Shown piece after piece: positions 2-59,508 of a DNA stretch of 59,862 nucleotides; the first letter of the stretch is position 1, and the number at the start of each line of letters is the position of its first letter. The position numbers and the translations under genes were made by a program. Location: the NCBI GenBank assembly GCA_043818555.1, contig JBDRFP010000019.1:1-59862 (forward strand), read 5' to 3'. Origin of the DNA: a bacterium. Its GTDB lineage: Bacteria > Patescibacteriota > Patescibacteriia > UBA9934. The notes beneath the pieces are model-generated. The model was given only the letters and a program-made list of their open reading frames with translations. It ran no database searches and was not told the DNA's origin.

Positions 2-664
2 AGCAACGGAAACACCGACACCGGCAAGACCGAAGTCGACCCTGTGGAAGCCTGGGCCGAAGTGACCATCAACGTCACCAAGCTCGGCGAGGAAGTGACC
101 GACACGGAAGTGCACGCCAACGGGCACTACACCGGTCCACCGGGCATTCCGCTTTCGGTCGCTGTCGACCCCGAAGACGGGACGCTCTACGAACTGAAGG
201 TCGGCGACCTGTCGACCACCAGCTCCGACGGCGTGCCCATCTACAACGACGGCACGCTCGACTGGGTGACTCCCGTCCAGGAGCGCGAGCTCTTCGACGG
301 CGACTCCGCTGAAGTCAACGCCTCGCTGAACCGCTACTTCGGTGGTGAGTACGAGTGCGTCCGCGACACCTACGTGTACGACGGCTCAGCCGAAGATTAC
401 AAGGGTGAGCACTACCGCCTCACCGAACTCGATCCGCAGTGGATCGAGGTAGAGGATGGCTACAAGGTGAAGGGCCAGGACGACCCTGGCATTGGCATCA
501 TGGACAACAATGACGAGATGCAGGTGGAAGGCGATCATCTGATCCTCCTCGGTGATGACGAAGTCTATATCCTGTCATCTGAGATCGGTCAAGACGAATT
601 CACAGCGACTTTCGTCGATCCCGATTTCAGCGTCAGAGTCCTCTACTGCGAACTCGCCGACTAG
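2..664 (+). CDS. hypothetical acidic protein, 5' end outside window (GC-rich cassette I1)
   Basis: Frame 2 is open from the window edge (no stop before GTG at 44). Codons are GC3-rich and the product is very Asp/Glu-rich. Stop TAG at 662-664 is followed by a hairpin plus T-run. No family recognised. Confidence 0.6.
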   Translation, partial: SNGNTDTGKTEVDPVEAWAEVTINVTKLGEEVTDTEVHANGHYTGPPGIPLSVAVDPEDGTLYELKVGDLSTTSSDGVPIYNDGTLDWVTPVQERELFDGDSAEVNASLNRYFGGEYECVRDTYVYDGSAEDYKGEHYRLTELDPQWIEVEDGYKVKGQDDPGIGIMDNNDEMQVEGDHLILLGDDEVYILSSEIGQDEFTATFVDPDFSVRVLYCELAD

Positions 665-9800: not shown

Positions 9801-9886
9801 TGCTTTGGAGCGAGCAACATGGAACCGCTCAGAAATACAAAAAACGCCAGAAGTATTATCCCTCGTTTTTTTGTGTTGTTGCGCAT
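812..9886 (-). CDS. giant (3,024 aa) secreted/surface Cys-rich protein with CBM-like and PKD-like modules
   Basis: Single uninterrupted 9,075-nt ORF with ATG at 9886. The N-terminus has a signal/anchor (KKRGIILLAFFVFLSGSMLLAPKQAHA). The protein is very rich in Cys, Asp and Glu. Two jelly-roll/CBM-like domain ends are present (NVWVDDIQLEQ, FWIDNVVLREG), and a PKD-like VDWGD..YQHNY lies near the C-terminus. Domain calls are motif-level only. Confidence 0.9.
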   Translation of the reverse strand: MRNNTKKRGIILLAFFVFLSGSMLLAPKQAHAQLPVTDVAAITYEQGKDIASRVATKLKEALVTTVTSSLINVMTYIANTAAYNAAVNIASGGDADLPLFDPRPPEDYFRYVGMSVVNEAIGIINEENIDGGLLEGYNLCVPLDPYVLLSYRVGLRRAYERPELTVPNMDMLGIDNACGLNDIRRNWSSFLADTQAKFEDPQERNEFVLSTLSSTMEPEINEFAAGMTLYSDTIGKAMTEANTKLSQFIDDSGFRGVANYINGNIETPADTIKDDFYSTINQQKALPNQIGQALMSNTDALLQVGVMAGSVFTNTLLNEMADRIYSGLFEVDFDPDPFDDDYILADRAERAREAYSSLQSFTPLEVTDFNLLSEFSSCSSGVRIAQRRLYNCVINTTFASALALADAGAPLTVQEAIDEGYISGDWALIPSRDKARNQDESCYRYAFCYGNLVKLRKARIISVGWELAADSDQNDESSPITLQEVIDGFDDCNSDSEIDSDHPWCHLIDPDWILVYPQHECRILAYGQQLEANGVDSRAEECVDYQSCIDEDDEGNCNGGYGYCVREKNIWRFRGDSCPEQYASCQSFDTREGEGVDYLTASIDASECGEGNVGCLWYSSVKEENDDGDFDWPEITNTATAELEITAYRERAYFNANIEACDSESAGCTQLIERDEDLNLNLVVNPTFDVDANGDDLPDAWFSTDWDSFVYSTADDIARTGDAAITTGFGDVYQKGITLGQSRFYAFTFFAAQPEGATGAYIEAAVVLTDADGVSTIDLTGTSFTGDCEMSSLLGNNALLIRAQPENDSYERFECIFTAPRLTDSSSLIHAEIVFGAELGQSGDATNVWVDDIQLEQEADASVWHVGYGVDYDDLDYTYVKLPPAYLGCTGESDDPDECDSFAPICTENDAGCNAYTPVSGDPTVFGIVNSLDQCSASCVGYDAYKQEATRFEPDGEFPIYFIPDTADSCSQDAIGCDEFTNLATEEVEYFTYLRGAVTESQAAENTNSDQAAVFYTWEGSDEEGFQLRVWNLLESDLSVPYVYGGSGEIDSDPGNAPCTTWKADDSGINCYDDSGVWVGDLASDTEDCDQHDDIFDNPDCREFYDSAGVIHYRQWSETVSINDAAVTYRKTTVAGADALAWQENCEGSGGFFNTSTNECLYYGFNEESETCAESENGCRNYTGGRSGNSRTALRDTFESDTLDSWDAASAVNVTLSNDSIATDGHSLKSEGTTNIWTHLYDYGSACAGEDGCASGTDTLGAECTVIEGNRYCGTLENDIFTGKTYILTFWAKGDGRIDVGWDIAANTAGTPNIDVDSSGNLIAFGEDIELTDEWQRYSLGPMDMNASDYPDFGNGTVLVFEPDGGVTFWIDNVVLREGEDDITVIMDSWVTPATCDRNLEGESSPQYQLGCQEYIDVGGASAYIKSFSNLCDESQVGCTGFFRSFETETEYAATYNAICSTLTGAEATANTTCYAMSDSSGTAYETGSPEICTIFSGNTGCQFDLDYYIPEAAFTGAMAHLSYTADTQVAEADRDVYAIVSDEFECDSTSSGCSEFGLPIFSADRSVVDSWESAYLVDDPDEYSDTLCESEELFCEEFDSTDEGIFYFKDPQNHVCEYSDGKNLNNATYRGWFREGTSEFCYGTGTCSESSAACVLDSDCADAGAGECNIESGSYVIGGELSGLWRNGDDDYAGWVGLCGPEYDGCSEFRDLLDFDDNEFYGETDGEAYFFVDNQNLDENTLLSAQKCNGQVSQKKGCALFYETGDTSLDYQSSASYIASKHANDLFGDAAYDLVDPIDCSDPNRSSITTPGGEEVDLCAKRCAYHQYNLLSSEDYSEVLDSADSINDLYQLSGSCYSDDDCPGYEGPTGDIVDGSCLDEVFFIFGSPQAVTCSDSSLGDRCEPVTRLENDTNRVLKVSQDRACSEWLTCSSSFTVWDEATASYKTICDGIDLCTDYAAAGDESFCSEWDVEDPVAVLDAERYSARDVTFYGEEYSGYAIPNSYPVQHLSQVNIAPRGYCGGDEDLPCDSDSDCSGSLTCDTQTENDYRLALNAGQCEGGFQDSCYVGYCENSIAPCVNSDDCSASEGECVIGRCYDSTTDLCSSDSDCDKTADEFCLAGVCTTDEGACGISGVCSTGVCFESTITQSGACYRGNCVVSVDGGEFDAELGETKICRAYPESTSPFGNEVVQEWFKSYIDSSGTEQLETTEDVTEATRSWQPYNKKYGFAQAEICTPGEDCDCSYKKLSTRGSSKYLHLDTSTDVDDWSGFGSGRLGICSGGSLDGAFCSTQGISCPDSGGECSPIMQEDSLFGLDGYCLERDSSINILGDPDQNACISWLPVDQLLGSTDLYAKYTGAGYFEGQTEYCIYTGVYADVTASNADSGSGTDWETTADIACVEQIGTSSGTTPGSVEETYALCVEKNYRFTCPPGHYAILGPMWDSGMNEGSYTRACMGRGTEDDDCPLVCVPVNSNIDGDYGACVPTIGSPEYFTDVFTVTDANDYSTSTDDELVWSGDVYIYEDEDDFTEQANAVQGCTAYGIELEEDFRGYSFSPTETLIDETDLSDSAADGWYDYDQDANIYVGCKQTIVVDEGDNISAAPYTDRLLGSNSGFTLNVTDENFAYDYSTGTQPFGKSQKMSEAASGTDPEPPLIASCERTITGGAIITPPSGPTPFDSCSAGTAVGSLTDPEARSFIDFEVNVNESGRREHDFDLFGVWTDAGASEVSTISTAGIITDLFARAFGVLQFDDGLTGNTSESSADTGSYSETTSGGHTEWDNRDEGSPPTVWALDLDNCYGNYCREGDENAVTVGSSNAGDLTASGGYYRATMKFFAAADKDQLPIRRVIVDWGDATGSERYSGSSDSDNYYKNHRGLTDDSHSESYCDTADEWGMTASSCDPNYFTYQHNYTCSESVINTMTIAGDYCEEDENGHITNSPCVESGQCVYQPRVHIRDNWGWCTGVCTLGDDGTNGCFENDVDTLSVPTGYDDQNAECAYLTWPSILSEANDPWVYYDGAIYVEP

Positions 9887-27397: not shown

Positions 27398-27539
27398 TAA
27401 TGACCAAGGCCCGAATAACCAACCCCCAATAAATTCCCAATGTCCAATCCTCCAATTTTCGATCACACGCCAGTGCCCATCAATTGGTCATTAGGTATTG
27501 GATATTCATTGGTCATTGGGTTCTTGTGAATTGGTCATT
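27398..27539. repeat. A-family CCAAT/ATTGG palindromic element, copy A1
   Basis: The left arm is rich in ccaat words. The right arm is caattggtcattaggtattggatattcattggtcattgggttcttgtgaattggtcatt, which is conserved in A2-A5. Confidence 0.8.
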
Positions 27540-27625
27540 TTTACTTTCTCCCATTATGCCACGAATCGTCAGTTGGTAAAAGTCGGACATCATTAAAACC
27601 CCCAACGCGAGGTCGGAGGTTTTAA

Positions 27626-30018: not shown

Positions 30019-30130
30019 TCCAATTACCAAGTAACCAATGACCAATGAATCCCCAATGCGCAATGGCCAATTGGAGATTGGGTATTGGATATTCATTGGG
30101 AATTGGGCGATTGATCATTGGTCATTATCA
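30019..30130. repeat. A-family element, copy A2
   Basis: ccaattaccaagtaaccaatgaccaatgaatccccaatg .. attggatattcattgggaattggg..gatcattggtcatt. The right end supplies the last codons and the stop of the bactofilin gene. Confidence 0.8.
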
Positions 30131-33767: not shown

Positions 33768-33874
33768 TTCCAATGACCAAGTAACCAATTCCCAATGAAC
33801 TCCCAATATTTAATTCTCAATTGGACATTGCGCGTTGGTTATTCATTGGTTATTGGGTTCTTGTGAATTGGTCA
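33768..33874. repeat. A-family element, copy A3
   Basis: tccaatgaccaagtaaccaattcccaatgaactcccaat .. caattggacattg..attcattggttattgggttcttgtgaattggtca. The right end contains the valS stop codon. Confidence 0.8.
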
Positions 33875-36532
33875 TTTAGGCAAATTGCTTATCTCGTCTT
33901 TGATTTTAATCGCCTGCTCTTTTGCCTCTGCCAGTCTTTCTTTGTCTGCTTCAACAACATCGGCGGGAGCATTCTTTACAAAGTCCTCATTGCCAAGCTT
34001 CTTTTCTAATGATCCCATGTATTGCTCTACATCTGCAAGTTCTTTTTCCAGTTTCTTTCGCTCAGCGGCAAAGTCAACCAGGTCTCCAAGAGGAATGTAA
34101 ATCTGAACCGAGCCGACAACCATTGCAACCGATCCGTCCGCACGCGCAACTTTGTCTTCAAATGTTAATTCACCGGCCTTGGCGAGCGTTTTAATAACCT
34201 GTTCATGATCCTTAAGATCGCCACCGTTTGAGATGATTACATCGACCTTCTTTCCGGGCGTTACCTTGTAGCGAGCGCGAGCGTTACGGATTGCGCCTAC
34301 AACACCTTGAAGCTGATCAAACGCTTCACGGTCAGCCTTTTTGAGCTTTGCTCCTACCTCCGGCCACTTTGCGACAATTAACATCCCGGAATCAAACTGC
34401 TTGTAGATCTCCTCAGTAACAAACGGCATAAACGGATGCCACATAACAAGCAGCCGCTCCAGAATGTAGAGCAAAATCTTATCGTTTGACTCACCAATTT
34501 GAGTCTTGGCAATCTCCACATACCAATCCGCAAACTCACTCCAAGTAAAATCGCGAAGCATTTCGCCCGCGAGCGAGAACTCATACTTTTCCATGTGCTC
34601 GGTGACTTTTTCGACAACCTCTGAGAATCGTCCAAGTATCCAGCGGTCAGCGAGCGTGACAGCTCCTACGTTTTCTACGGCTCCTACATTTTCTACGTTC
34701 ATGAAAACAAAACGAGAAATATTCCACAGCTTGTTTGTGAAATTCCTAAAACTGTCAATTTTGTCCTGCGATAGTCTTGTGTCGTTTCCCGGAGTCGACC
34801 CTATCATCAACGCCAACCTTGTAGCGTCTGCGCCAAACTTTTTAACGCTATCGAGCGGGTCAACCACATTATCAAGCGACTTGGACATTTTTCTCCCCTG
34901 CTCATCGCGAACAAGCCCGTGCAAATACACCTGGCGGAAAGGAACTTCGCCAGTGGCATAAGTTGTCATTAAAATCATTCGTGCAACCCAGAAGAAAATA
35001 ATATCGTAACCAGTTTCCAAAACATTATTTGGATGGTAAAGGTTGAAATCTTCAGAATCGTTAGGCCAGCTCAAAGTTGAAAAAGTCCAGAGCCCGGAAC
35101 TAAACCACGTGTCCAGTGTATCCGAATCTTGTTCCCATCCTTCGCCCTCAGGAGATTCAACGCCAACATACACTTCATCGTTCCTGTACCAAACCGGAAC
35201 TCTGTGTCCGTACCAAATCTGACGACTAATGTTCCAATCGCGCAAGTTATCAATCCAGTGGAAGTATGTTTTGTTAAACCTGTCAGGGATTATTTCAATC
35301 TGATCCGTGCGCACAACATGCTGCATGAGTTCTTTGAGCGTAACATTCTGACCGTTTTTGATCCCCTCAATTGGCGAATGCTTTGAAGCTCGGAATTTGA
35401 ACGGCTTGTTAACATCAATAAACCACTGAACCTTTGGAAGCGGCTCAACAGCAGTGCCACAGCGGTAGCAGATCGATAAATTCTGAGGCGAATCTTCAAC
35501 AGATTCCATTAGCCCTTGCGACTCGAGCCAGTCGACCACTTTGGACCTAGCTTCCTCAACGGTTAGTCCGTTAAAGTCTTCTCCCGCTCGATCTGTCATT
35601 AGTCCGTCTTCACCGATCACTTTGATAAATCCCAAATTATTTTTTCGAGCCATCTCTTCATCTATCTTGCTATGAGCTGGCGTAACTCCAAGCGCGCCCG
35701 TTCCAAACTCAGCACTCACTTCTTCGTCTGCGATCACCTTAATCGTGAGCGGGCCTCCGGCAAACTCAACATTGAACTCTTTACCAATAAATTCTTTGTA
35801 CCGCTTGTCGGTCGGATTGACAGCAACCGCAGTGTCACCAAGCTTCGTTTCCGGTCGAGTCGTTGAAATTGAAATCGGAAAATCTTTGTCGTATTTAAAT
35901 GTGTAGAGCTTAGCTGTTTTCTCTTCGTGCTCAACCTCATCGTCAGCTAGTGTTGACTTACAACGCGGGCACCAGTTAATAACTCGGTCACCGCGATAAA
36001 TCAAACCGTCGTCATACATCATTTTGAAAACCGTCCGTACCGCAAGCGACCTGGCGTCATCGAGCGTGTATGCCTCCCGAGTCCAATCAAGTGACGCTCC
36101 CATCTTCTTAGTTTGATGGATGATGGTGTCGTGACTTTCAGACGCAAACTTCTCAACTCGCTTCAAAAACTCTTCACGTCCAAGCTCGTGCCGAGGATCT
36201 TTCATGCCGTCAGCAATAAGCAGCTTCTCAACCTTTGCCTGAGTTGCAATGGCGGCATGGTCGGTTCCGGGAATCCACAAAGCGCGCTTCCCTCGCAGAC
36301 GCGCAAAGCGAATCATTGCGTCTTCAATGGCAAGCATTACCGCATGGCCAATGTGAAGCGTGCCGGTAACATTTGGTGGTGGCAAAACAATGGTAAACGC
36401 CTCAACCCGATCTTTAAGATCTGGCAGGTTCTCAGGAGTAAAATACCCGCTCTTCTCCCAAGCGGCGTAAATCTTGTCTTCAATCTTCCCTGCGTCAAAA
36501 GACTTAGGGATAGCGCTTTTGTCTTCAGTCAT
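33872..36532 (-). CDS. valS: valine--tRNA ligase
   Basis: HIGH (TLHIGHAVMLAIED), KMSKS (KMSKSLDN), the CP1 editing region and a C-terminal coiled coil. ATG at 36532. Confidence 0.95.
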   Translation of the reverse strand: MTEDKSAIPKSFDAGKIEDKIYAAWEKSGYFTPENLPDLKDRVEAFTIVLPPPNVTGTLHIGHAVMLAIEDAMIRFARLRGKRALWIPGTDHAAIATQAKVEKLLIADGMKDPRHELGREEFLKRVEKFASESHDTIIHQTKKMGASLDWTREAYTLDDARSLAVRTVFKMMYDDGLIYRGDRVINWCPRCKSTLADDEVEHEEKTAKLYTFKYDKDFPISISTTRPETKLGDTAVAVNPTDKRYKEFIGKEFNVEFAGGPLTIKVIADEEVSAEFGTGALGVTPAHSKIDEEMARKNNLGFIKVIGEDGLMTDRAGEDFNGLTVEEARSKVVDWLESQGLMESVEDSPQNLSICYRCGTAVEPLPKVQWFIDVNKPFKFRASKHSPIEGIKNGQNVTLKELMQHVVRTDQIEIIPDRFNKTYFHWIDNLRDWNISRQIWYGHRVPVWYRNDEVYVGVESPEGEGWEQDSDTLDTWFSSGLWTFSTLSWPNDSEDFNLYHPNNVLETGYDIIFFWVARMILMTTYATGEVPFRQVYLHGLVRDEQGRKMSKSLDNVVDPLDSVKKFGADATRLALMIGSTPGNDTRLSQDKIDSFRNFTNKLWNISRFVFMNVENVGAVENVGAVTLADRWILGRFSEVVEKVTEHMEKYEFSLAGEMLRDFTWSEFADWYVEIAKTQIGESNDKILLYILERLLVMWHPFMPFVTEEIYKQFDSGMLIVAKWPEVGAKLKKADREAFDQLQGVVGAIRNARARYKVTPGKKVDVIISNGGDLKDHEQVIKTLAKAGELTFEDKVARADGSVAMVVGSVQIYIPLGDLVDFAAERKKLEKELADVEQYMGSLEKKLGNEDFVKNAPADVVEADKERLAEAKEQAIKIKDEISNLPK

Positions 36533-38091: not shown

Positions 38092-39561
38092 ATGACTGGA
38101 GGATTTTTAATTCAGTACGCAAACCGCGCCACAACACCGGAGTATCGTGTTGCTACTTTTGTGGCCGGAGAACCTCGGCTGACTTGGGTGTCGCTGTTTT
38201 TTGATAATTTTCCACAGGCCGATGTTTACTTAGTCGGTGGAACGCTTCGCGATGTACTCCTCGGCATGATCCCAACCGACATCGACATTGTTGTCCGCAA
38301 TGTTCCGCTTAAAAAACTTCAGGGCTGGCTAATGTCGCACGGCGCTGCTGACTTTGTGGGCAAACGCTTTGGCACATTTAAGTTTGCTCCTCACGGAACT
38401 GCCGGACAATTGCCGCTCGACATTGCTCACCCTCGAAAAGAGTTTCTTTCACCTGTTCACAAGAGCGGCCGCAGCAGTATGGAAGTAGAGTACGACTCTC
38501 ACTTGCCGATCAAAAAAGACCTTGCTCGTCGAGATTTCACAATCAACGCAATGGCCTACGACATTAGAACCGGCCATTTAATCGATCCGTACGACGGCTT
38601 GGTCGACCTTCAATCCGGACTTATTTGCGCAGTGCTAAATCCTGCACAGCGATTCTTTGAAGACGCTACACGCATGCTCCGCGGCCTGCGTTTTGCAAGT
38701 CAGCTTGGATTTTCAATAGAGGCCGACACCTGGGAGGCGCTTAAGAATAATCTACCACTTTTGAATAATACCGACATAACTGACGAAGGCACACACGCCT
38801 ATGTTGTGCCGCGCGAGGCGATTGGCAAAGAGTTCCTGCTCGGTTACAATGCGCATCCGACTCACACCTTGGAACTTTGGAAACATGCCGGCGCTTTAGA
38901 GATGTTCATGCCCGCCATTGCCGATTTGGAAAACATTGTTTTGCGTGATGGCTCTAGCGCGTGGACAAAAACCTTACAAGTCCTTCATCTTTTGAATAAA
39001 CCTTCACTTTTGTTTGAGCATGGTTTAGAAAAACCGTCGCCGACCGCGCTGGTGGCAGCGCTTTCGAGCTTTGTTGATGGCAACGCAAGCAAGCTGGCAT
39101 TTGATGTTTGCAAAAAATTATATTTCCACCAATTCCCTTCCGGCCACCGGGCTGAAGTTGATTGTAAAAATGTTTTGTGGATTTTGGATCACTTGTACGA
39201 TTTTGATGAAATCAATCCGGCCAGTATGCGGCCAAGTGTGTTTGAGAAGATGTTCTGTTCCATGCGTGGGAGTGATTTGTTGTTGCTGATGCACGCCGTG
39301 TTTATTGCGTCTGGGTCGCATTCACTTTCACGCGAAAGGCTCCATGTTGCTTTGCGGATTGCAAATAAAATGTGTCATTTTGAAGGCGGACATGCGCGCG
39401 CAACCAAGTTGATTAGCGGAGCTGACATTTCCGCGCTTGGCGTACCAACCGGGCCGGTTTACCGAGATTTGATGGAGCAGGTTAGGGATGCTCAGTTGGC
39501 TGGAAAGATTTCAAACAAAAAAGAAGCGTTAGAGCTTCTGCGTGATTTAATCTCTAAATAA
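38092..39561 (+). CDS. cca: CCA-adding enzyme / poly(A) polymerase-family tRNA nucleotidyltransferase
   Basis: VYLVGGTLRDVLLG..DIDIVV and RRDFTINAMAY head-domain motifs. 489 aa. Confidence 0.85.
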   Translation: MTGGFLIQYANRATTPEYRVATFVAGEPRLTWVSLFFDNFPQADVYLVGGTLRDVLLGMIPTDIDIVVRNVPLKKLQGWLMSHGAADFVGKRFGTFKFAPHGTAGQLPLDIAHPRKEFLSPVHKSGRSSMEVEYDSHLPIKKDLARRDFTINAMAYDIRTGHLIDPYDGLVDLQSGLICAVLNPAQRFFEDATRMLRGLRFASQLGFSIEADTWEALKNNLPLLNNTDITDEGTHAYVVPREAIGKEFLLGYNAHPTHTLELWKHAGALEMFMPAIADLENIVLRDGSSAWTKTLQVLHLLNKPSLLFEHGLEKPSPTALVAALSSFVDGNASKLAFDVCKKLYFHQFPSGHRAEVDCKNVLWILDHLYDFDEINPASMRPSVFEKMFCSMRGSDLLLLMHAVFIASGSHSLSRERLHVALRIANKMCHFEGGHARATKLISGADISALGVPTGPVYRDLMEQVRDAQLAGKISNKKEALELLRDLISK

Positions 39562-39586
39562 CCCTCAACCTCTCTTAACCTCCCTC

Positions 39587-39612
39587 AAATTCCCTTGTGG
39601 GATTTTATTTTT
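39587..39612 (+). terminator. cca terminator
   Basis: aaattccc-ttgt-gggatttt hairpin followed by a T-rich run. Confidence 0.6.
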
Positions 39613-39650
39613 GCAAACAAATAACCCCGCATCCTGTTACAGATGCGGGG
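39613..39650 (-). terminator. terminator of cassette I5
   Basis: ccccgcatc / gatgcgggg is a 9-bp stem (39625-39650), followed on the minus strand by ttatttgtttgc. Confidence 0.75.
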
Positions 39651-39671
39651 TCGAACGACTTGACGACGACC

Positions 39672-39833
39672 TCAGGCCGCCGCCTGCTCCTCCGGCGCTT
39701 CCGCGCCGGCGATGAGGCCGTTGATCACGGCCGCTGCCGCGACGGAGGCGAGATCCTCGTCTTCGTAGAGAGCGAAGAACTCGTCGTAGAACAGGGAAAT
39801 AATGAGGTCGCCGATGGTTGTTCCGGTGGGCAT
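39672..39833 (-). CDS. small acidic protein, 53 aa (cassette I5, gene 3)
   Basis: ATG at 39833 lies 5 nt after GGAGGG (alternative ATG at 39845). Codons are GC3-rich (MPTGTTIGDLIISLFYDEFFALYEDEDLASV..). The stop is followed by the terminator. Below the ORF-track length cutoff. Confidence 0.5.
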   Translation of the reverse strand: MPTGTTIGDLIISLFYDEFFALYEDEDLASVAAAAVINGLIAGAEAPEEQAAA

Positions 39834-39886
39834 AATGCCCTCCATTTTTTGGGGTTAAGACTCCGCTGAGTGGTCGATCGAATCAG

Positions 39887-39943
39887 GTCACCCGGTGATG
39901 GACGGAGACAACGCGTAAAACGCGAAGTCCGTCACCGGGTGAC
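39887..39943. promoter_or_regulatory. 17-bp inverted repeat (operator-like or 5'-UTR hairpin) upstream of I5 gene 3
   Basis: gtcacccggtgatggac (39887-39903) and its complement gtccgtcaccgggtgac (39927-39943) match at 16/17. Each half contains the near-palindrome GTCACCnGGTGAC. Confidence 0.6.
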
Positions 39944-40017
39944 GAATCATCGACCGCTCGGCGTAGTCCCCAATCCCATGCAAGCACAGGATTGGGAGAC
40001 GGATGTCGGAGAGAGCG

Positions 40018-40611
40018 CTAGGAGTCGCCCTTGGTCGGGCCGGTCAGGAGCGGGATCCGTTTCTGTCCGTCGATCGCCCGCTTACGCAGGTTCTCGCTGG
40101 GCGAGAATCGAACCAGAACCTTGTGCTCAGCCAAGTCCAGCTCAGCGTTGCCGTCGGTCCAGAGGCCGGTTCCCTCCATCTTCTCAATGACCATCCCGAG
40201 CGCCATCACCTCGGAATATCGGAGGTTGGGCCTCGGTGGAATGAAGTCCTGGACTTCGATCTCCACGTACTGCTCGGTCGGAACCCACTCGCGCATGATT
40301 GTCACGCTCACATACGCGATCATCTTCTCGGCCATCTCCTTCACCTCTTCCTGCAGCTGGCGCCGCCTCCACAGTTCCTTGATGGCAGGAGCCACCAGGA
40401 GCATCTGGATCACCTCATCGAAGATGACGAGGGTGAGGAAGTCCCAGATATGGCTGAGCCCGGGGATAAGACCCATGAGCTCAAGGGCGATGAAGATGAT
40501 TGCGTTGATGAAGATCCACGTCTGAAGCGCAGCAGTAGACCTCTGCTTCCAGAATTCAGTAGCCACCCAGGCCACGAACTCCCTGGCGTTCTCTTTTGCA
40601 CTTGGCGCCAT
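40018..40611 (-). CDS. hypothetical membrane protein, 197 aa (cassette I5, gene 2)
   Basis: ATG at 40611 lies 5 nt after AAGGAGG. Two N-terminal TM helices are followed by a soluble C-domain. Codons are GC3-rich. No family recognised. Confidence 0.7.
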   Translation of the reverse strand: MAPSAKENAREFVAWVATEFWKQRSTAALQTWIFINAIIFIALELMGLIPGLSHIWDFLTLVIFDEVIQMLLVAPAIKELWRRRQLQEEVKEMAEKMIAYVSVTIMREWVPTEQYVEIEVQDFIPPRPNLRYSEVMALGMVIEKMEGTGLWTDGNAELDLAEHKVLVRFSPSENLRKRAIDGQKRIPLLTGPTKGDS

Positions 40612-40665
40612 TGGCACCTCCTTTTTTTTGTTTTGAATTTTTGACTCCGCTAAATTGTCGACGAT

Positions 40666-40705
40666 GTCACTTGGTGCCGGACGATGTAGTCCGACACCGA
40701 GTGAC
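40666..40705. promoter_or_regulatory. 17-bp inverted repeat upstream of I5 gene 2, paralogous to 39887-39943
   Basis: gtcacttggtgccggac and gtccgacaccgagtgac match at 15/17. The flanking gactccgct..gtcga and gacgaat.gtcgac..ctcggc blocks are shared with the other module. Confidence 0.6.
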
Positions 40706-40730
40706 GAATTGTCGACTTCTCGGCAGAGAC

Positions 40731-40748
40731 CTGGAGCGGCCGCTCCAG
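40731..40748. repeat. perfect 18-bp palindrome ctggagcggccgctccag
   Basis: Read directly from the sequence. Lies in the I5 gene 1 / gene 2 intergenic region. Confidence 0.9.
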
Positions 40749-40880
40749 ATACTCAGCGGTTCTGGGAAGAACTTATTGAAGTGTCGATTCTGCAATCAAC
40801 CTCTCAATGAGTTCCCCGTACCAGACTTCCAGCTTGCGCTAGAAATGGGTACGGGGACGCTTTAACTTGAAGGAGCGGGG

Positions 40881-41900
40881 CTAGACGAACGCGCCGTCGA
40901 CGGACTGCCACCAGGACCGGGGCCGGCGGCCGCCTTCGTGGCGAGCCCACTGAGGACCGCGCCAGTTGCGCTCGACGGGCTTGCGAGACCCGTCGTCGCT
41001 GCAGTACTCCAGCTCGCGCTGGCGCAACTGCTCGGAAACGATCTCGGCGTCGAGCATGCGCTCGATTGCCTCGATCGTGTCCTCCACGATGACCTCGGGA
41101 TTGTGCCTCAGCCGACCGAAGTCGACGCCGAAGTCGTAGTCCCAGAGCTCGTCGGGCTCGTAGTCGTAGTCCTCGTCCAGGTCGTAGTCGTCCCACTCGA
41201 GGGCTCTGTCGAGGACATAGTCCTCGTCGTCGTCCAGGGCGTTGAGCGCTTCACAGCAGGAGTCGCGTCGCGACTCCTGCTGCAAAAGCGTCTCTTCGGC
41301 CTCGTAGTCCCATTCCTCGGCTTCGGCTTGCGCCTTGGCCTCGGCCTCCATGTCCTCGAAGACGGCCCAGGGGTCGGTGTCCTCGATCATGTCGGCGTTG
41401 GGCTCGACGCGGATACGAGCGCCCTTGTGGCGGGCCCACTGGGGACCGCGCCAGTGTCGCTCGGCCGGAGGGTCATCGCACTTGCCCTCCCACTGACTGT
41501 TCCGCTCGTCGAGCTTGCGCTCGGCTCGAGCAGAGAGTCGACGCTCGATGTCGTCGATCTCGGCCTCGCAGTCGTCGTCTTCGCTCTCCTCGTACATGTC
41601 GGCCATGTCGTTGTAGCGGTCGAGGCCGTGGTCTTCGTACTCATCGCTGTCGTCCCAGACTTCGATCTCCTCGTCGCTCGGCGCCACCATGTCCTGGTAG
41701 TGATCATTGAGCATGTGGAAACCGACTTCATCGATCGGGATCCAGTTGCGCTCCGGGTCGTCGACGCGCATGTCCTCGGACGGACCCAGGAGGTTTTCCC
41801 AGGCCCAGTCTTCGAGGTCAAGTGCGTTGGCATCGCCAACGGGCAGCGCCCCGGACTCGGACGAATGGAACTCGCGGCCTTCTGCTCCAGAATTGAGCAT
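40881..41900 (-). CDS. highly acidic repeat protein, 339 aa (cassette I5, gene 1)
   Basis: ATG at 41900 lies 7 nt after AAGGAG. GC3 bias is strong. Asp/Glu/Trp-rich, with a duplicated ER(H/N)WRGPQWARH(K/E)G motif. The ORF-track extension to 42083 is a translated A-repeat. Confidence 0.75.
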   Translation of the reverse strand: MLNSGAEGREFHSSESGALPVGDANALDLEDWAWENLLGPSEDMRVDDPERNWIPIDEVGFHMLNDHYQDMVAPSDEEIEVWDDSDEYEDHGLDRYNDMADMYEESEDDDCEAEIDDIERRLSARAERKLDERNSQWEGKCDDPPAERHWRGPQWARHKGARIRVEPNADMIEDTDPWAVFEDMEAEAKAQAEAEEWDYEAEETLLQQESRRDSCCEALNALDDDEDYVLDRALEWDDYDLDEDYDYEPDELWDYDFGVDFGRLRHNPEVIVEDTIEAIERMLDAEIVSEQLRQRELEYCSDDGSRKPVERNWRGPQWARHEGGRRPRSWWQSVDGAFV

Positions 41901-42044
41901 GTCCTGTCTCCTTGGTTGTTTTTTTATTGAAGTTAAGAAAACTATTTTGACTCTTTTACAAGCCATGTTTGTGGTCTTTCTAAAGCCGCAATCATGGATT
42001 GTAAATGCTATCTGTTTGGGAACCGACCGATACAATGTAGCTAA

Positions 42045-42153
42045 TGTCCAATCCCCAATTATCAATTCCCAATGAATTCCCAATTCCCAATCTCCAATTG
42101 GTCATTGTGCATTGGATATTCATTGGTTATTGGGTGCTTGTGAATTGATCATT
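42045..42153. repeat. A-family element, copy A4
   Basis: tgtccaatccccaattatcaattcccaatgaattcccaattcccaatctccaattggtcattgtgcattggatattcattggttattgggtgcttgtgaattgatcatt. Confidence 0.8.
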
Positions 42154-42420
42154 TAATGAGCCAACAAAATGCCACACTTTGGCTCTTCTGATGGAGAAAG
42201 CGGTTTATGCCTAATCACAGAAAGCCCAAAATGTGGCTTTTTCTTACAGCCCGATGAAATCAGGCTAACTCTCTCCCCAGAAAGTATTGAATTGTAAGCT
42301 TCAATTTAACACTAATACTATACCACATTTTGACGATTTTGTCAAGACCTAAACCTACTGAATTCCGCCAAACTTAGCAAAATTAACTTTACTAATCCTA
42401 GCCACTTTTCAGCCCAACGA

Positions 42421-42490
42421 GACAACCCTAAAGGTTCAGAAACCTTGAGGGTTGCGCGTCCAGAGTTCAGAAATCTTGAGGGTTGTCTGG
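42421..42490. repeat. J-family word hairpins (aaccttgagggttg)
   Basis: gacaaccctaaaggttcagaaaccttgagggttg..cagagttcagaaatcttgagggttgtc. A related perfect hairpin lies at 44017-44048. Confidence 0.7.
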
Positions 42491-42552: not shown

Positions 42553-42629
42553 GGGTGTGTAGCTCAGTTGGTCAGAGCGCGGAGCTTATACCTCCGTGGT
42601 CGATGGTTCGAGTCCATCCACACCCACCA
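42553..42629 (+). tRNA. tRNA-Ile (anticodon TAT)
   Basis: Acceptor gggtgtg/cacaccc, anticodon stem cggag/ctccg, loop cTTATac, T-loop ttcgagt, encoded CCA. Confidence 0.8.
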
Positions 42630-42810: not shown

Positions 42811-43116
42811 ATGCCTAGTGGTACAACTTCGAAAAGGCTACATTACACCTATGTACTTCGGAGTAACAAAGACGGTAAAAACTACGTAGGCTACTCTCCT
42901 TTATTGCTGAGCGCCTTTTACAGCATAGCTCAGGAAAAGCTGTATCGACGCAACACAGAAGGCCGTTGAAGTTGATTTATCTAGAGGTATGTTTATCCAA
43001 GGTTGACGCCCTGCGTCGTGAGAAGTATTTAAAAACCACCGACGGGAGAAAATTCTTGTCCAAACGTTTAAAAGATTACTACGGTCCACACACTAATTCG
43101 AAGTTGTCCCACTAGG
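42811..43116 (+). pseudogene. GIY-YIG nuclease gene, frameshifted
   Basis: Relative to 52042-52353 it has 19 substitutions and one 1-nt deletion (ctctgcc to ctctcc), by hand alignment. The frame runs into TGA after about 53 codons. Confidence 0.75.
42814..43116 (+). mobile_element. TIR-bounded GIY-YIG element, copy 1 (decayed)
   Basis: 20-bp terminal inverted repeats cctagtggtacaacttcgaa / ttcgaagttgtcccactagg (19/20). TATG is present on both flanks (42810-42813 and 43117-43120). Confidence 0.75.
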
Positions 43117-44016: not shown

Positions 44017-44048
44017 CAACCTTCAAGGTTTCTGAACCTTGAAGGTTG
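44017..44048. repeat. J-family perfect hairpin
   Basis: caaccttcaaggtt-tctg-aaccttgaaggttg has a 14-bp perfect stem. It lies between the two genes of cassette I6. Confidence 0.85.
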
Positions 44049-44059
44049 CGATCGGCGCC

Positions 44060-44689
44060 TTACGCGGCCCAAAGGCTCGCGTCCGGCAGCTCCACGTAAA
44101 GCATGCCATGCATGGTCGACACGCGGCGGAGATACCCAGCCTGCGTGAGTACGTAGAGAATCTCGGAAGTCGGTACAACAATGTTGAACCTGGCATCGTG
44201 TTCTGGCCCAGAGATAAGCGTGGAAAGACACGCAAGCTGTTCACCCTCCTTGCCGTCGCTCACGAACACGCCCATATACCCACGCTCAGGAAACTTAACT
44301 GCCCCGCCGGGCTCGACTCCGAGCTGCACCAAGGCGCAGTGCAGAAGTCCTGTGCCAATCGGCTTGGCCTCCACGAAATGGCGTAAGAACTTCTGGAACA
44401 TTGGCCGAAACACGCCGTACCAAGTTCCCTTCGGCCTTACAATCGCCTCGGCCGCAATCGCTTCGCGCAACAGCGCCTCGCAACTCACGCCCTCCAGGTC
44501 CACACGCATCCCCCCTTCCTGCGCATACAGGCAAAGCGTGCCGTCGACTTCTATGTAGTCGACCTCCACGTGCGGATGAAAACAGTTTACGCCGCCAATC
44601 GGCGAATCTGCATTGCTATTTATGCCCACCGGTTGCGCCGGTACCACACCATCCCTGAACTTCACCTCTGTAATCACTCCATCGCTCAT
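44060..44689 (-). CDS. hypothetical protein, 209 aa (cassette I6, gene 1)
   Basis: ATG at 44689 lies 5 nt after AGGAGGT. Codons are GC3-rich. The ORF-track extension to 44896 is rejected. No family recognised. Confidence 0.7.
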   Translation of the reverse strand: MSDGVITEVKFRDGVVPAQPVGINSNADSPIGGVNCFHPHVEVDYIEVDGTLCLYAQEGGMRVDLEGVSCEALLREAIAAEAIVRPKGTWYGVFRPMFQKFLRHFVEAKPIGTGLLHCALVQLGVEPGGAVKFPERGYMGVFVSDGKEGEQLACLSTLISGPEHDARFNIVVPTSEILYVLTQAGYLRRVSTMHGMLYVELPDASLWAA

Positions 44690-44714
44690 CTTTACCTCCT
44701 TCTGATGGCTGAAT

Positions 44715-58110: not shown

Positions 58111-58743
58111 GTGGAAACCTCCCGCCAACCTCCCGCCTCCTCATTCGATGGAGGCTCGACCGCTTCTCCTGGCCACCCGGCCACAGCCCCGCGTTCATTG
58201 CGCCATACGCAAACGCCCCGAGACCGCCGCGATGTGCTCTCCAAGGCCATCCGCGACAAGATCGGCGACGGCGCGAAGATCGACTGCAAGACCGGGGCCA
58301 TGCTCGCGATCACGGTCAAGATGGTCGAGCTGTTCGGCTACGACGGGAAAAGCATGGATGCGCTCGAAACCTTCGCCGATCGCGCAATGGGTCACGAGTT
58401 CAGGAACCTGGACGAATTCGCCAGTGCTCTCCCCGACCTCGGCCCGGCGCAGGCCCTGGTGCTCAAGAACCGACTTCATGTCCTGCCCGCAACCGAACCT
58501 GGCAGCGTGCAGGCCGCAATGGCAAACTTCGTCGAGAGGTTCGCCGTGCGGTACCCTGACGCCATCGCCCTTTGGGAGCGCGCACTCGACCGCATCGCAA
58601 GCGGCGAGATCGCCAACCACGCCGCGCTCGCGAGGGCGCTGCCCGTGTACTTCCAGAACACGTGCCTGGCAGATGGAGAGCTCACTGCCGCAAGCAGCCG
58701 CGCCTTTCACGGCAACGGCCGCAAGCTCCAGTCTCTGATCTAG
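58111..58743 (+). CDS. hypothetical protein, 210 aa (GC-rich cassette I7)
   Basis: GTG at 58111 follows AAGGTG. Among three overlapping long ORFs, this frame has the strongest GC3 bias. A terminator follows. No family recognised, and the start is uncertain. Confidence 0.6.
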   Translation: METSRQPPASSFDGGSTASPGHPATAPRSLRHTQTPRDRRDVLSKAIRDKIGDGAKIDCKTGAMLAITVKMVELFGYDGKSMDALETFADRAMGHEFRNLDEFASALPDLGPAQALVLKNRLHVLPATEPGSVQAAMANFVERFAVRYPDAIALWERALDRIASGEIANHAALARALPVYFQNTCLADGELTAASSRAFHGNGRKLQSLI

Positions 58744-58824: not shown

Positions 58825-59014
58825 TCACGAGTTCAGGAAACAAGACAATCGCTTCAAGCTTGGCTTGATGAGGAAAGTCCGAACACCGCATGCGTGGTAA
58901 CGCGCATGTAAAAAAGAGCGTTGCTAACGGCAACCGGGCGAGTGTAATTTGAGGAATTAGATCTATTCCTTGATAGCGTGAAGCCTAGGGAAAGTGCCAC
59001 AGAGACAATACTAA

Positions 59015-59165
59015 CCAGTGCTTCGCACTGGAATGATCAATGACCGAATATTCAATCTCCAATGAATACCCAATGTTTAATAACCAATGAAAATTGGGAA
59101 TTGAGAATTGGAAATTCATAGAGAATTGAAACTTGGAAATTGGACATTCCGATGCGGAGCATCGG
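59015..59165 (+). repeat. A-family-derived insert 1 inside rnpB (P12 position)
   Basis: 151 nt, bounded by the hairpins ccagtgc-ttc-gcactgg and ccgatgc-gga-gcatcgg. The core consists of ccaat / attgg words. Confidence 0.85.
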
Positions 59166-59317
59166 TGAAACGTGAAAAGTTCGATGGTGTCGCTTGCGGC
59201 TACATCGATCGCCCCGTGGTGACGCGGTGGCGTGGTAAACCCACTCTGGTGAAAGAGCAAATTTGGTAGCTCGATTGAGGCGTCTGGCAACAGGCGTCCT
59301 AGACAAATGATTGTCAG

Positions 59318-59468
59318 CCAGTGCTTCGCACTGGAATGCTCAATGACTAAACATCCAATCTCCAATGAATCCCCAATGTCCAATAACCAATTAAGATTGG
59401 GAATTGAGAATTGGAAATTCATTGGGAATTGGAACTTGGAAATTGGACATTCCGATGCGGAGCATCGG
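59318..59468 (+). repeat. A-family-derived insert 2 inside rnpB (between the P2 and P4 3' strands)
   Basis: 151 nt, with 13 substitutions and no indels relative to insert 1 (hand alignment). It shares ccaatgaatccccaatg and attcattgggaattgg with intergenic copy A2. Confidence 0.85.
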
Positions 59469-59508
59469 CCTACAGAATTCGGCTTATTCGTTTCCTGAAC
59501 ATCAAAAA

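What the first reader, a model, noticed from the sequence alone, without database searches (positions are those of the whole stretch)
39613..41915. Cassette I5: three-gene GC-rich module (acidic repeat protein, membrane protein, 53-aa acidic peptide) with internal regulatory duplications
This is the largest and most GC-rich island, with 75% G+C in one counted 60-nt line.

Gene 1 (339 aa) is extremely Asp/Glu/Trp-rich. It carries two copies of ER(H/N)WRGPQWARH(K/E)G, each followed by a basic patch. Such charge patterns recall DNA-mimic or anti-restriction-type proteins, but that is only an analogy. Gene 2 (197 aa) has two N-terminal TM helices and a soluble domain. Gene 3 is a 53-aa acidic peptide missed by the ORF track.

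Each gene has its own SD. Genes 2 and 3 are each preceded by a homologous ~90-nt leader, and the unit ends in a strong terminator. None of the three products matches a family I know.

The combination of a small peptide, a membrane protein and an acidic protein under duplicated operator-like sites fits a self-regulated accessory system (toxin/immunity, exclusion or anti-defence). Its function is open.
Basis: partly seen in the sequence, partly recalled or inferred. Interest (0 to 1): 0.7.

Follow-up and report, generated by a model that had tools for sequence, protein, structure and literature searches.

The report
Mosaic GC-rich gene islet in Patescibacteria-like genome
Three real, GC-rich genes sit together in a bacterial chromosome of lower GC content, but they are not a conserved three-part system: the last is a widespread unnamed small protein, and the other two are near-orphan genes added in front of it behind a copied RNA-hairpin leader.

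Summary
Three minus-strand genes are present: g1 41900-40881 (339 aa), g2 40611-40018 (197 aa) and g3 39833-39672 (53 aa). Each has a Shine-Dalgarno site. Their GC3 is 0.80-0.84 against 0.47-0.56 in host genes. The leaders before g2 and g3 are homologous long hairpins, and the unit ends in a strong intrinsic terminator.

The three-gene system reading is not supported, because the genes never co-occur elsewhere.
- g3 belongs to an unnamed family of about 55-aa acidic helical-hairpin proteins, most ending in Ala-Ala. There are 29 protein clusters and 64 metagenome loci.
- In 23 of 41 informative loci a g3 homologue lies just upstream of a ~487-aa protein. In genomes that look like Patescibacteria it stands alone.
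- In this lineage g3 is a resident gene convergent on the CCA-adding enzyme gene (window, L002, L025).
- g1 has one distant relative among 1.84 billion representatives, in another GC-rich islet of a Patescibacteria-like genome. g2 has none.
- A leader hairpin ending in GCGGAG is shared by five genes in the three related genomes.

My best reading is a mosaic accessory operon at a variable hotspot, with orphan genes recruited behind copies of the g3 leader. Function remains inferred. Interest is moderate.

The parts
40881..41900 (-). g1: 339-aa acidic, Trp-rich protein. It has an N-terminal ~70-aa domain followed by two divergent repeats, each ending in ER(H/N)WRGPQWARH(K/E)G plus a basic patch.
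   Evidence: ORF, SD site and GC3 of 0.84. Internal repeat. Only a self-hit in 5.8e9 proteins. One distant relative, P0032, among 1.84e9 representatives.
41682..41885 (-). g1 N-terminal domain (residues 6-73), the only part shared with P0032.
   Evidence: BLASTP 43% identity over 72 aa, E 2e-12 pairwise; phmmer E 6e-7 library-wide.
41421..41462 (-). g1 motif copy 1, ERHWRGPQWARHKG (residues 147-160).
   Evidence: (D4)
40932..40973 (-). g1 motif copy 2, ERNWRGPQWARHEG (residues 310-323).
   Evidence: (D4)
40643..40728 (-). Leader hairpin before g2 (paralogue of the g3 leader). Its 3' arm ends in AGCGGAGTC, 31 nt before the ATG.
   Evidence: (-48.3 kcal/mol, z -7.8)
40731..40856 (-). Two further hairpins in the g1-g2 spacer. 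One has a 9-bp stem, CCCCGTACC...GGTACGGGG (40856-40814). The other is the 18-bp perfect palindrome CTGGAGCGGCCGCTCCAG (40748-40731).
   Evidence: Read; folded.
40018..40611 (-). g2: 197-aa protein with two N-terminal hydrophobic helices and a predicted helix plus small alpha/beta C-terminal part. It is an orphan.
   Evidence: self-hit only; GC3 0.80; AF2 pLDDT 54.6, unreliable
39859..39970 (-). Leader hairpin before g3. The basal stem GACTACGCCGAG / CTCAGCGGAGTC is conserved in L002 and L025. The apical extension carries the GTCACCNGGTGAC palindromes.
   Evidence: I4, I8; -69.1 kcal/mol, z -7.5
39672..39833 (-). g3: 53-aa acidic helical-hairpin protein ending in AAA. It is a member of an unnamed small-protein family.
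   Evidence: AF2 with family alignment gives pLDDT 82, helices 7-23 and 26-44.
39613..39652 (-). Intrinsic terminator: 12-bp stem, 7 G-C pairs, then a T-run. It closes the unit and faces the convergent CCA-enzyme gene (38092-39561, +).
41955..42005 (-). AT-rich 20-bp hairpin followed by AGAGTCAAAA, upstream of g1. Its architecture loosely resembles the g2 and g3 leaders.
   Evidence: (I5)
42317..42345 (-). Near-consensus sigma-70 promoter TTGACA-17-TATAGT with an extended -10, 417 nt upstream of g1. It is the only candidate promoter for the unit.
42063..42155 (.). Copy of a host dispersed repeat that marks the upstream flank as host DNA. The other copies are at 27481-27540, 30035-30105, 33818-33878, 51934-51990, 59100-59148 and 59362-59431.

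Best explanation
This is a mosaic accessory islet at a variable hotspot, not a conserved three-gene system. The host is a cellular bacterium that is probably a member of Patescibacteria (CPR), and the hotspot lies between the CCA-adding enzyme gene and tRNA genes.

Shown:
- The three genes are real coding sequences whose codon usage is foreign to the host.
- g3 belongs to a widespread unnamed family of ~55-aa acidic two-helix proteins with a disordered tail that usually ends in Ala-Ala.
- In this lineage g3 is a resident gene, convergent on the CCA gene in three genomes. It is preceded there by a hairpin whose 3' arm ends in GCGGAG, 22-38 nt before the start codon.
- g1 and g2 are specific to this lineage. 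L002 carries two different small genes at the same place.
- g2 is preceded by a diverged copy (74%) of the g3 leader. In L002 the gene ahead of g3 also has a hairpin-GCGGAG leader.

Inferred:
- New genes from a GC-rich flexible gene pool that circulates among Patescibacteria-like genomes are recruited upstream of g3, each behind a copy of its leader.
- g1, g2 and g3 are then transcribed as one mRNA from a host-type promoter upstream of g1 and stopped at the terminator.
- The intercistronic hairpins act at the RNA level, as processing, stability or attenuation elements that set the relative output of each cistron.
- g3 is a small cytoplasmic adaptor or regulator that works with a membrane protein and is turned over through its C-terminal Ala-Ala. 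In many other bacteria that membrane protein is the ~487-aa protein encoded directly downstream. Here g2 may hold that role by position only.
- The role of g1 is unknown.
For: Coding status and foreign composition:
- GC3 is 0.84, 0.80 and 0.82, against 0.47-0.56 for nine host genes including GroEL.
- TTC is used at 100% against 29% in host genes, ATC at 88% against 32%, GTC at 47% against 11%.

Host:
- The window encodes a release factor, GroEL, NusA, ArgRS, ValRS, UvrA, TrpRS and RNase P RNA.
- The closest CCA-enzyme relatives are MAGs, one of them labelled Patescibacteria.

Hotspot and mosaic structure:
- L003 has no island after the CCA gene.
- L002 has a 1.5-kb GC-rich island with different genes plus a g3 homologue.
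- L025 has g3 alone, again next to the CCA gene.

g3 family:
- There are 29 clusters and 64 metagenome loci.
- 23 of 41 informative loci have the ~487-aa partner on the same strand within 500 nt.
- 43 of 63 complete C-termini end in AA.
- The AF2 model is a helical hairpin with pLDDT 82.

Leader:
- The intergenic stretches ahead of g2 and g3 align at 74% identity.
- z-scores of the folds are about -7.6.
- GCGGAG is invariant in five of five leaders from three genomes.
- The C-G to U-A and A-U to U-G changes between the two window copies keep the stem on the sense strand (read).

g1 and g2:
- The only relative of g1 lies in another GC-rich islet (64-72% GC in a ~51% GC genome) of a genome that encodes DUF4012.
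- g2 has no relative.

Boundaries: host-specific dispersed repeats flank the unit.

Background: genomic islands are already documented as common in Patescibacteria (PMC12455944).
Against: - No transcript data exist, so operon structure and RNA-level action of the hairpins are inferred.
- The only sigma-70-like promoter found is 417 nt upstream of g1.
- The apical part of the g3 leader contains perfect GTCACCNGGTGAC palindromes, which could equally be protein-binding sites.
- g3 keeps a high GC3 in three genomes whose CCA enzymes are only 54-58% identical. This is hard to reconcile with simple old vertical inheritance without amelioration. Repeated replacement, or some unknown constraint, would be needed.
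- No donor was identified. g1 and g2 have no homologues in high-GC organisms either.
- hhalign finds no similarity between g2 and the ~487-aa partner, so the idea that g2 substitutes for it is positional only.
- The adaptor and degron roles proposed for g3 rest on conservation of the C-terminal AA and on gene neighbourhood, not on any test.
Confidence: 0.5

Rival explanations
1. This is a dedicated three-component accessory system (toxin/immunity, exclusion or anti-defence) under its own operators. On this reading the small acidic g3 or the acidic g1 neutralises a membrane-acting g2, and a repressor binds the palindromes.
For: - The three genes are tightly linked and lie in one orientation.
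- The set combines a small acidic protein, a membrane protein and a very acidic protein.
- Each arm of the g3 leader holds a perfect 13-15-bp palindrome.
- The C-terminal Ala-Ala of g3 is compatible with a labile antitoxin-like partner.
Against: - The genes never co-occur elsewhere.
- g3 homologues are mostly paired with an unrelated ~487-aa protein or stand alone behind strong promoters.
- There are no PADLOC, PHROG or Pfam hits.
- None of the three proteins has a recognisable DNA-binding domain that could bind the 'operators'.
- The palindromes within each arm are degraded in the g2 copy, while complementarity between the arms is kept.
Confidence: 0.1
2. The hairpins are recombination sites, or the ends of small mobile elements, rather than RNA regulators. 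They could be integron-like attC sites or MITE-type elements with CTCCGC...GCGGAG termini. The islet would then be a cassette array assembled by site-specific recombination.
For: - Each gene is bounded by long imperfect hairpins.
- Only the hairpin bases (CTCYGC / GCGGAG) are conserved between genomes, while the apical parts differ in sequence and length.
- Gene content at the same site is mosaic between genomes.
Against: - No integrase or transposase lies in or near the islet.
- The attC R''/R' consensus (RYYYAAC / GTTRRRY, from my own knowledge) is not visible in the sequence of the hairpins.
- The element is not dispersed elsewhere in the 60-kb window.
- It is absent from the viral and metagenome scans at the exact-pattern level.
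- Its fixed distance to the start codons suggests a role tied to expression.
Confidence: 0.1
3. The islet is a remnant of a phage or other mobile element, and its genes are early or moron-type genes of that element.
For: - g3 homologues occur on two contigs in IMG/VR (L023 and L024, 55-61% GC), within rows of small genes in the same orientation.
- tRNA genes and a GIY-YIG-like ORF lie next to the hotspot.
- The cargo is made of orphan genes.
Against: - There are no PHROG hits for g1-g3, or for the neighbours of the g3 homologues on the IMG/VR contigs.
- There is no integrase and no att-like direct repeat.
- g1 and g2 are absent from viral contigs.
- Most g3 homologues lie among housekeeping genes.
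Confidence: 0.1
4. The GC-rich stretch is an assembly chimera from another, GC-rich organism.
For: There is a sharp compositional contrast, and g1 and g2 have no homologues.
Against: - The adjacency of g3 and the CCA gene recurs in three independently assembled genomes.
- The leader motif is shared among these genomes.
- A host-specific dispersed repeat lies between the islet and the tRNA gene.
- Several other single-gene GC-rich islets, each behind an AT-rich promoter, occur in the same contig and in related contigs.
Confidence: 0.02

Closest known systems
Genomic islands and horizontally acquired islets in Patescibacteria (PMC12455944)
   Same: - It is accessory DNA with deviant composition, at a site that varies between related genomes, next to tRNA genes.
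- The cargo is of unknown function.
- The only detectable relative of g1 lies in another Patescibacteria-like genome. This fits that paper's finding that most transfers are within Patescibacteria.
   Different: - It is only about 2.3 kb, with no integrase or other mobility gene.
- It is GC-richer than the host, whereas foreign DNA is usually AT-richer (my own knowledge).
- One of its three genes is a long-standing resident of the locus.
Intercistronic REP-type or stem-loop mRNA elements that set differential expression within operons (for example the malE-malF REP; my own knowledge)
   Same: Long, stable hairpins lie between cistrons of one transcription unit and are duplicated within the unit.
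   Different: - The hairpins are much longer (84-112 nt).
- They sit at a fixed distance upstream of the next start codon.
- They carry an invariant GCGGAG.
- They are not dispersed through the genome.
- Their function has not been tested.
Integron gene cassettes with attC sites
   Same: Promoterless genes lie in one orientation, separated by imperfect hairpins. Gene content is mosaic between genomes.
   Different: - There is no integron integrase.
- The conserved R''/R' boxes are absent.
- The hairpins are homologous in sequence and tied to the downstream start codons.
Small labile partner proteins with C-terminal Ala-Ala degrons (ssrA-like tags, some antitoxins and adaptors; my own knowledge)
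   Same: g3 and 68% of its family end in Ala-Ala after a disordered acidic tail of variable length.
   Different: Proteolysis has not been shown. The family has no sequence or significant fold match to any known antitoxin or adaptor.
Zinc-binding anti-sigma (ZAS) factors and ECF sigma region 4, as a possible kinship of the ~487-aa partner of the g3 family
   Same: The partner alignment shows a VFRxHYGDGxSLExL...GLR stretch and an HxxxCxxC motif, followed by a hydrophobic segment (compared with my own knowledge of these families).
   Different: - Only one of five members gives even a weak Sigma70_r4_2 hit (E 0.078).
- There is no PDB or NCBIfam match.
- The window encodes no such partner.
DNA-mimic anti-restriction proteins (Ocr, ArdA)
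   Same: g1 is strongly acidic (30% Asp+Glu, pI 4.1).
   Different: There is no sequence match in Pfam, PHROGs, PADLOC or PDB sequences. g1 also carries basic, Trp-rich motifs. The resemblance is in composition only.

Membership tests
g3 small-protein family (unnamed; alignment A3) | Conserved core (T)LG(E/D)LIxxxYxE(F/Y)xxxYx(D/N)E(D/E)LAxxAxAAxIN over about 36 residues | tested here: met
   Profile search E 2.9e-22 for the window protein. Identity to 27 other clusters is 43-61%. hmmsearch gives E 1.2e-21.
g3 small-protein family (unnamed; alignment A3) | Two-helix hairpin followed by a short disordered acidic tail that ends in Ala-Ala | tested here: met
   The AF2 model has helices 7-23 and 26-44, pLDDT 82. 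The window protein ends ...EEQAAA, and 43 of 63 homologues end in AA.
g3 small-protein family (unnamed; alignment A3) | Partner gene of ~487 aa (A4) directly downstream on the same strand | tested here: not met
   The window has no A4 hit anywhere. The partner is present in 23 of 41 informative loci and absent in Patescibacteria-like loci.
Horizontally acquired genomic island | Composition and codon usage deviate from the host | tested here: met
   GC3 is 0.80-0.84 against 0.47-0.56 in host genes, and codon usage is sharply different.
Horizontally acquired genomic island | Presence or absence varies among related genomes at a syntenic site | tested here: met
   L003 is empty at this site, L002 has different cargo, and L025 has g3 only.
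Horizontally acquired genomic island | Mobility genes (integrase or transposase) or flanking direct repeats | tested here: not met
   No such ORFs lie in or beside the islet, and there are no flanking direct repeats.
Integron cassette array | IntI tyrosine recombinase with an attI site nearby | tested here: inconclusive
   The ORFs scanned beside the islet give no recombinase hit, but not every ORF of the 60-kb window was scanned.
Integron cassette array | attC sites with RYYYAAC...GTTRRRY boxes | tested here: not met
   By inspection of the sequence against the consensus recalled from my own knowledge, the hairpin bases are CTCYGC / GCGGAG and the attC boxes are absent. No formal attC model was run.
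Known anti-phage defence or toxin-antitoxin systems | Match to a PADLOC or Pfam component model | tested here: not met
   There are no hits at E <= 0.1.
Known anti-phage defence or toxin-antitoxin systems | Conserved co-occurrence of the component genes | tested here: not met
   No other locus carries two of the three genes.
Rfam cis-regulatory RNA families | Covariance-model match at or above the gathering score | tested here: not met
   Only tRNAs and RNase P pass the gathering score in the window. The permissive scan of 39500-42300 gives only sub-threshold microRNA-type hairpin matches.
Intrinsic (Rho-independent) terminator | G+C-rich stem-loop followed by a T-run, downstream of the last gene | tested here: met
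   39652..39623: 12 pairs, 7 of them G-C, with tail ATTTGTTTGC; -27 kcal/mol.

The most novel reading that the evidence does not exclude
Patescibacteria-like genomes may draw on a distinct GC-rich pool of orphan genes, with GC3 of 0.8-0.9 against about 0.5 in the host and no homologues among billions of proteins. These genes would be captured at a few hotspots by a mechanism centred on the leader. On this reading the hairpin-GCGGAG element upstream of the resident g3 gene is both the recruitment site and the expression signal for incoming genes. g3 itself would be a conserved, protease-controlled adaptor that couples such cargo, or in other bacteria a sigma/anti-sigma-like membrane protein, to a cellular target.
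Probability: 0.12. Interest if true: 0.7.

Novelty: new member of a known kind. Interest (0 to 1): 0.4.

Why it matters
If the reading holds, three things are worth following up.

1. **A new small-protein family.** It is widespread, unnamed and unannotated, about 55 aa, with a helical hairpin and a C-terminal Ala-Ala. In many bacteria it has a fixed ~487-aa membrane partner. This is a concrete, testable pair for people who study small proteins and transmembrane signalling.

2. **An unusual pattern of gene acquisition.** In this Patescibacteria-like clade the orphan genes are GC-richer than the genome. They sit behind AT-rich promoters of host type, or behind copied structured leaders. This bears on how reduced symbiont genomes acquire and express new genes.

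3. **A conserved leader element.** The hairpin-GCGGAG element is found in front of five genes in three distantly related genomes and is a candidate cis-regulatory RNA.

None of this is a new kind of system yet. The three-gene unit itself is specific to this lineage, and its function is unknown.

Tried and rejected
- **Exact-sequence look-ups** of g1 and g2 found no record.
- **Leader pattern in collections.** The viral scan gave one hit (L001), which lies inside the coding region of an ORF next to a terminase-like gene and has none of the rest of the leader. I rejected it as chance. The metagenome scan gave no hits.
- **g2 structure.** The AF2 single-sequence model had pLDDT 54.6, too poor for a fold search.
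- **g3 fold search.** Foldseek of the g3 model against the PDB gave nothing below E 4. ECF-sigma and PhyR chains appear among the weak hits, but a helical hairpin is too generic to read anything into this.
- **The 489-aa CCA enzyme as the family's ~487-aa partner.** I tested whether the convergent CCA enzyme is the counterpart of the partner protein. There is no similarity, so the equal length is a coincidence.
- **g1 or g2 as divergent partners.** hhalign probability is 0.2% for each. BLASTP found nothing either.
- **Other L002 island genes against g1 and g2** showed no similarity.
- **Leader upstream of g3 homologues in other lineages.** It is absent there.
- **A loose CTCYGC...GCGGAG pattern as a dispersed repeat** is not specific: 13 hits against about 6 in shuffled sequence, and nothing resembling the leaders elsewhere.
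- **RNAalifold on a MAFFT alignment of the five leaders** was uninformative, because the apical parts differ in length. I did not build a covariance model.
- **Codon selection as the cause of high GC3.** I rejected this because GroEL has a GC3 of only 0.465.
- **The long antisense ORFs** (40938-41930 + and 40003-40644 +) are by-products of the GC-rich coding strand.
- **Literature.** One of the two searches timed out.

Full report
**1. The observation**

All three genes lie on the minus strand.
- g1 is 41900..40881 and encodes 339 aa.
- g2 is 40611..40018 and encodes 197 aa.
- g3 is 39833..39672 and encodes 53 aa.
- Each is preceded by a Shine-Dalgarno site 5-7 nt from the ATG: AAGGAG, AAGGAGG and GGAGGG.

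The GC-rich stretch also produces long ORFs on the opposite strand, 330 and 213 aa. GC by codon position identifies the minus-strand frames as coding. GC1/GC2/GC3 are 0.71/0.38/0.84, 0.58/0.37/0.80 and 0.67/0.44/0.82.

g1 contains 30% Asp+Glu and 4.4% Trp and has a pI of 4.1.
- It carries ERHWRGPQWARHKG at residues 147-160 and ERNWRGPQWARHEG at residues 310-323.
- Each motif is followed by a basic patch.
- The two motifs close a longer internal repeat, residues 73-162 against 221-325, 35% identity.

g2 has two hydrophobic segments, at about residues 25-50 and 55-78.

The intergenic stretches ahead of g2 and g3 align at 74% identity.
- A leader-specific 22-mer occurs only at those two places in the window, against 0 expected.
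- Both leaders fold as long imperfect hairpins, -48.3 and -69.1 kcal/mol, with z-scores of -7.8 and -7.5.

A 12-bp G+C-rich stem followed by a T-run at 39652..39623 ends the unit.

**2. Context**

The window is a cellular bacterial chromosome. It encodes a release factor, GroEL, NusA, ArgRS, ValRS, UvrA, TrpRS, five tRNAs and RNase P RNA.

The CCA-adding enzyme gene (38092-39561, +) converges on g3. Its closest relatives among GTDB species genomes are two MAGs at 54% identity. One is labelled Patescibacteria (L002) and the other 'uncultured Gammaproteobacteria' (L003). I therefore treat the host as probably Patescibacteria. This rests on the label of L002 and on typical gene content, such as a protein with a T4SS-pilin domain.

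Host genes have GC3 of 0.47-0.56, and GroEL has 0.465. The islet uses TTC at 100% against 29% in host genes, ATC at 88% against 32%, GTC at 47% against 11%, and CCC at 44% against 7%. The composition is foreign and is not explained by codon bias linked to high expression.

The 200 nt upstream of g1 are 37.5% GC. They include a copy of a repeat dispersed through the host contig. This, together with the synteny described below, excludes a chimeric assembly.

**3. Homology**

g1 and g2 found only themselves among 5.8 billion proteins. None of the three proteins matches Pfam, NCBIfam, PHROGs, PADLOC or PDB sequences.

An exhaustive phmmer search of g1 against 1.84 billion cluster representatives found one relative, P0032 (282 aa).
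- It shares only the N-terminal ~70 residues: 43% identity, E 6e-7 library-wide and 2e-12 pairwise.
- Like g1, it has a basic, Trp-containing C-terminus.
- It lies in another genome of about 51% GC with typical Patescibacteria content, including DUF4012. There it sits inside another GC-rich islet of 64-72% GC, next to unrelated orphan genes.
- That locus has no g3 homologue.

g3 is different. It is 53% identical over 36 residues to the last gene of a GC-rich islet that follows the CCA gene in L002.

A profile of the two sequences retrieved 29 protein clusters of 51-110 aa.
- The core is (T)LGELIxxLYEEYLxxYGDEDLASVATAATINDLL.
- It is followed by a variable acidic tail.

A metagenome scan added 64 loci.
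- 43 of 63 complete proteins end in Ala-Ala.
- With the family alignment, AF2 predicts a two-helix hairpin with pLDDT 82.
- Foldseek finds nothing significant.

**4. What accompanies g3 elsewhere**

In genomes of 44-76% GC the g3 homologue lies directly upstream, on the same strand, of a ~486-491-aa protein with no Pfam domain.
- With a profile of five such proteins, 23 of 41 informative metagenome loci show this pairing.
- Three more have the partner nearby, and 15 lack it.

The partner alignment shows a stretch that resembles sigma region 4, an HxxxCxxC motif and a hydrophobic segment. Only one of the five proteins gives even a weak Sigma70_r4_2 hit (E 0.078). This remains a lead from memory, not a test.

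The window encodes no such partner, and g1 and g2 are unrelated to it.

In low-GC loci that look like Patescibacteria (L053, L032, L082, L087) g3 stands alone behind a near-consensus TTGACA-N17-TAnAAT promoter. It is again GC-richer than its surroundings.

Two IMG/VR contigs also carry homologues. Neighbouring ORFs there give no PHROG hit, so the viral nature of those contigs is unconfirmed.

**5. The locus in the window's own lineage**

L025 is a third relative (CCA enzyme 58% identical). It also has g3 (74% identical) convergent on the CCA gene, but with no g1 or g2. L002 has two different small genes ahead of g3. L003 has no g3, only a small GC-rich membrane ORF at that site.

So g3 is the resident gene, and the genes upstream of it are replaceable.

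The g3 leaders of the window, L002 and L025, the g2 leader of the window and the leader of the gene before g3 in L002 share four features.
- All contain a hairpin whose 5' base reads CTCYGC-like.
- Its 3' base reads (A/G)GCGGAG.
- It lies 22-38 nt before the start codon.
- GCGGAG is invariant in five of five leaders.

The apical parts differ in length and sequence. The long apical extension with the GTCACCNGGTGAC palindromes is specific to the window, and it is present in both window copies.

Between those two copies, one stem pair changed from C-G to U-A and another from A-U to U-G. Pairing between the arms is kept on the sense strand, while the palindrome within each arm decays (read). I take this as weak evidence (n=2) for an RNA hairpin rather than a protein operator.

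The element is not dispersed elsewhere in the window. It matches no Rfam family and was not found by exact pattern in the viral or metagenome collections.

**6. Interpretation**

The unit is best read as a mosaic accessory operon built at a variable hotspot.
- The resident small gene g3 has a structured leader.
- Two lineage-specific, near-orphan genes (g1, g2) were added upstream, g2 behind a copy of the g3 leader.
- The whole is probably transcribed from a host-type promoter. The only candidate found is TTGACA-17-TATAGT at 42345..42317.
- Transcription would stop at the intrinsic terminator.

The idea of a dedicated three-component toxin/immunity, exclusion or anti-defence system is therefore not supported, although it is not excluded.

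The functional statements are inferences from conservation and gene neighbourhood only:
- that g3 is a small adaptor turned over through its C-terminal Ala-Ala;
- that it works with a membrane protein;
- that the hairpins act as RNA processing or stability elements.

One tension remains unresolved. g3 keeps a high GC3 (0.64-0.82) in three genomes whose CCA enzymes are only 54-58% identical. Simple vertical inheritance with amelioration does not predict this. Repeated replacement from a GC-rich pool shared among Patescibacteria-like genomes would fit. That pool is also suggested by the location of g1's only relative, and by the report that most transfers into Patescibacteria come from other Patescibacteria (PMC12455944).

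**7. Novelty and score**

Genomic islands in Patescibacteria are documented, so the kind is known. What is new here is the cargo, the unnamed g3 family with its ~487-aa partner, and the conserved hairpin-GCGGAG leader.

I rate the finding as a new member of a known kind, with interest 0.4. The most novel reading that the evidence does not exclude is leader-centred capture of a GC-rich orphan gene pool, with g3 as a conserved adaptor. I give it a probability of about 0.12.

Noticed in passing
window 58833-59502 (+): The RNase P RNA (class A) match spans 670 nt for a 367-nt model. Two copies of the host dispersed repeat (59100-59148, 59362-59431) lie inside it, so the gene appears to carry repeat insertions.
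   Followed up: partly
window 27481-27540, 30035-30105, 33818-33878, 42063-42155, 51934-51990, 59100-59148, 59362-59431: A dispersed repeat family of about 60-90 nt, rich in GGGAATT/CCAATTG-like heptamers and 84-95% identical between copies, lies in intergenic regions of the host genome.
   Followed up: partly
window 42427-42455, 42461-42486, 44017-44040: A short REP-like hairpin, CAACCYTNAAGGTTCAGAAACCTTGARGGTTG, is repeated near the tRNA-Ile gene and directly after the stop codon of another GC-rich gene. It may be a host terminator or repeat element.
   Followed up: no
window 44-664 (+), 44060-44692 (-), 58111-58743 (+): Three further single-gene GC-rich islets (GC3 0.78, about 0.64 and 0.79) have no Pfam match. 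The one at 44060-44692 has its own TTGACA-N17-TACATT promoter and an AGGAGG site, and its product ends ...LWAA.
   Followed up: partly
window 42553-42629 (+) and 42811-42969 (+): A tRNA-Ile with anticodon TAT, which is uncommon in bacteria, borders the hotspot. It is followed by a short ORF that starts like a GIY-YIG nuclease (...YTYVLRSNKDGKNYVGYS). The tRNA-Ile is inverted relative to tRNA-Val when compared with L002 and L003.
   Followed up: no
L004 6001-7761, L010 6001-7809, L012 939-2766, L013 3918-5620, L016 5564-7356: A conserved two-gene module occurs in other bacteria: a g3-family small protein followed by a ~487-aa protein with a stretch resembling sigma region 4, an HxxxCxxC motif and a hydrophobic segment. 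It has no Pfam, NCBIfam or PDB match and is often near ComF-like, PHP and SCP2 genes.
   Followed up: partly
L018 6762-9717: Another Patescibacteria-like genome has a GC-rich islet with a 287-aa orphan gene (71% GC), a 45-aa ORF and the g1 relative P0032. It is followed by a host-composition gene with a PaaX_M/Cas2-like domain.
   Followed up: partly
L003 9510-9695 (+) and L025 4263-4472 (-): In two relatives a small GC-rich ORF with a hydrophobic core (61 and 69 aa), probably a membrane protein, sits immediately after the CCA-enzyme gene on the same strand. This is the same spot where the window has its terminator and g3.
   Followed up: no
window 812-9886 (-): A 3024-aa Cys-, Asp- and Gly-rich protein with an N-terminal hydrophobic, signal-peptide-like stretch occupies 15% of the contig. 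It is probably a giant surface protein.
   Followed up: no
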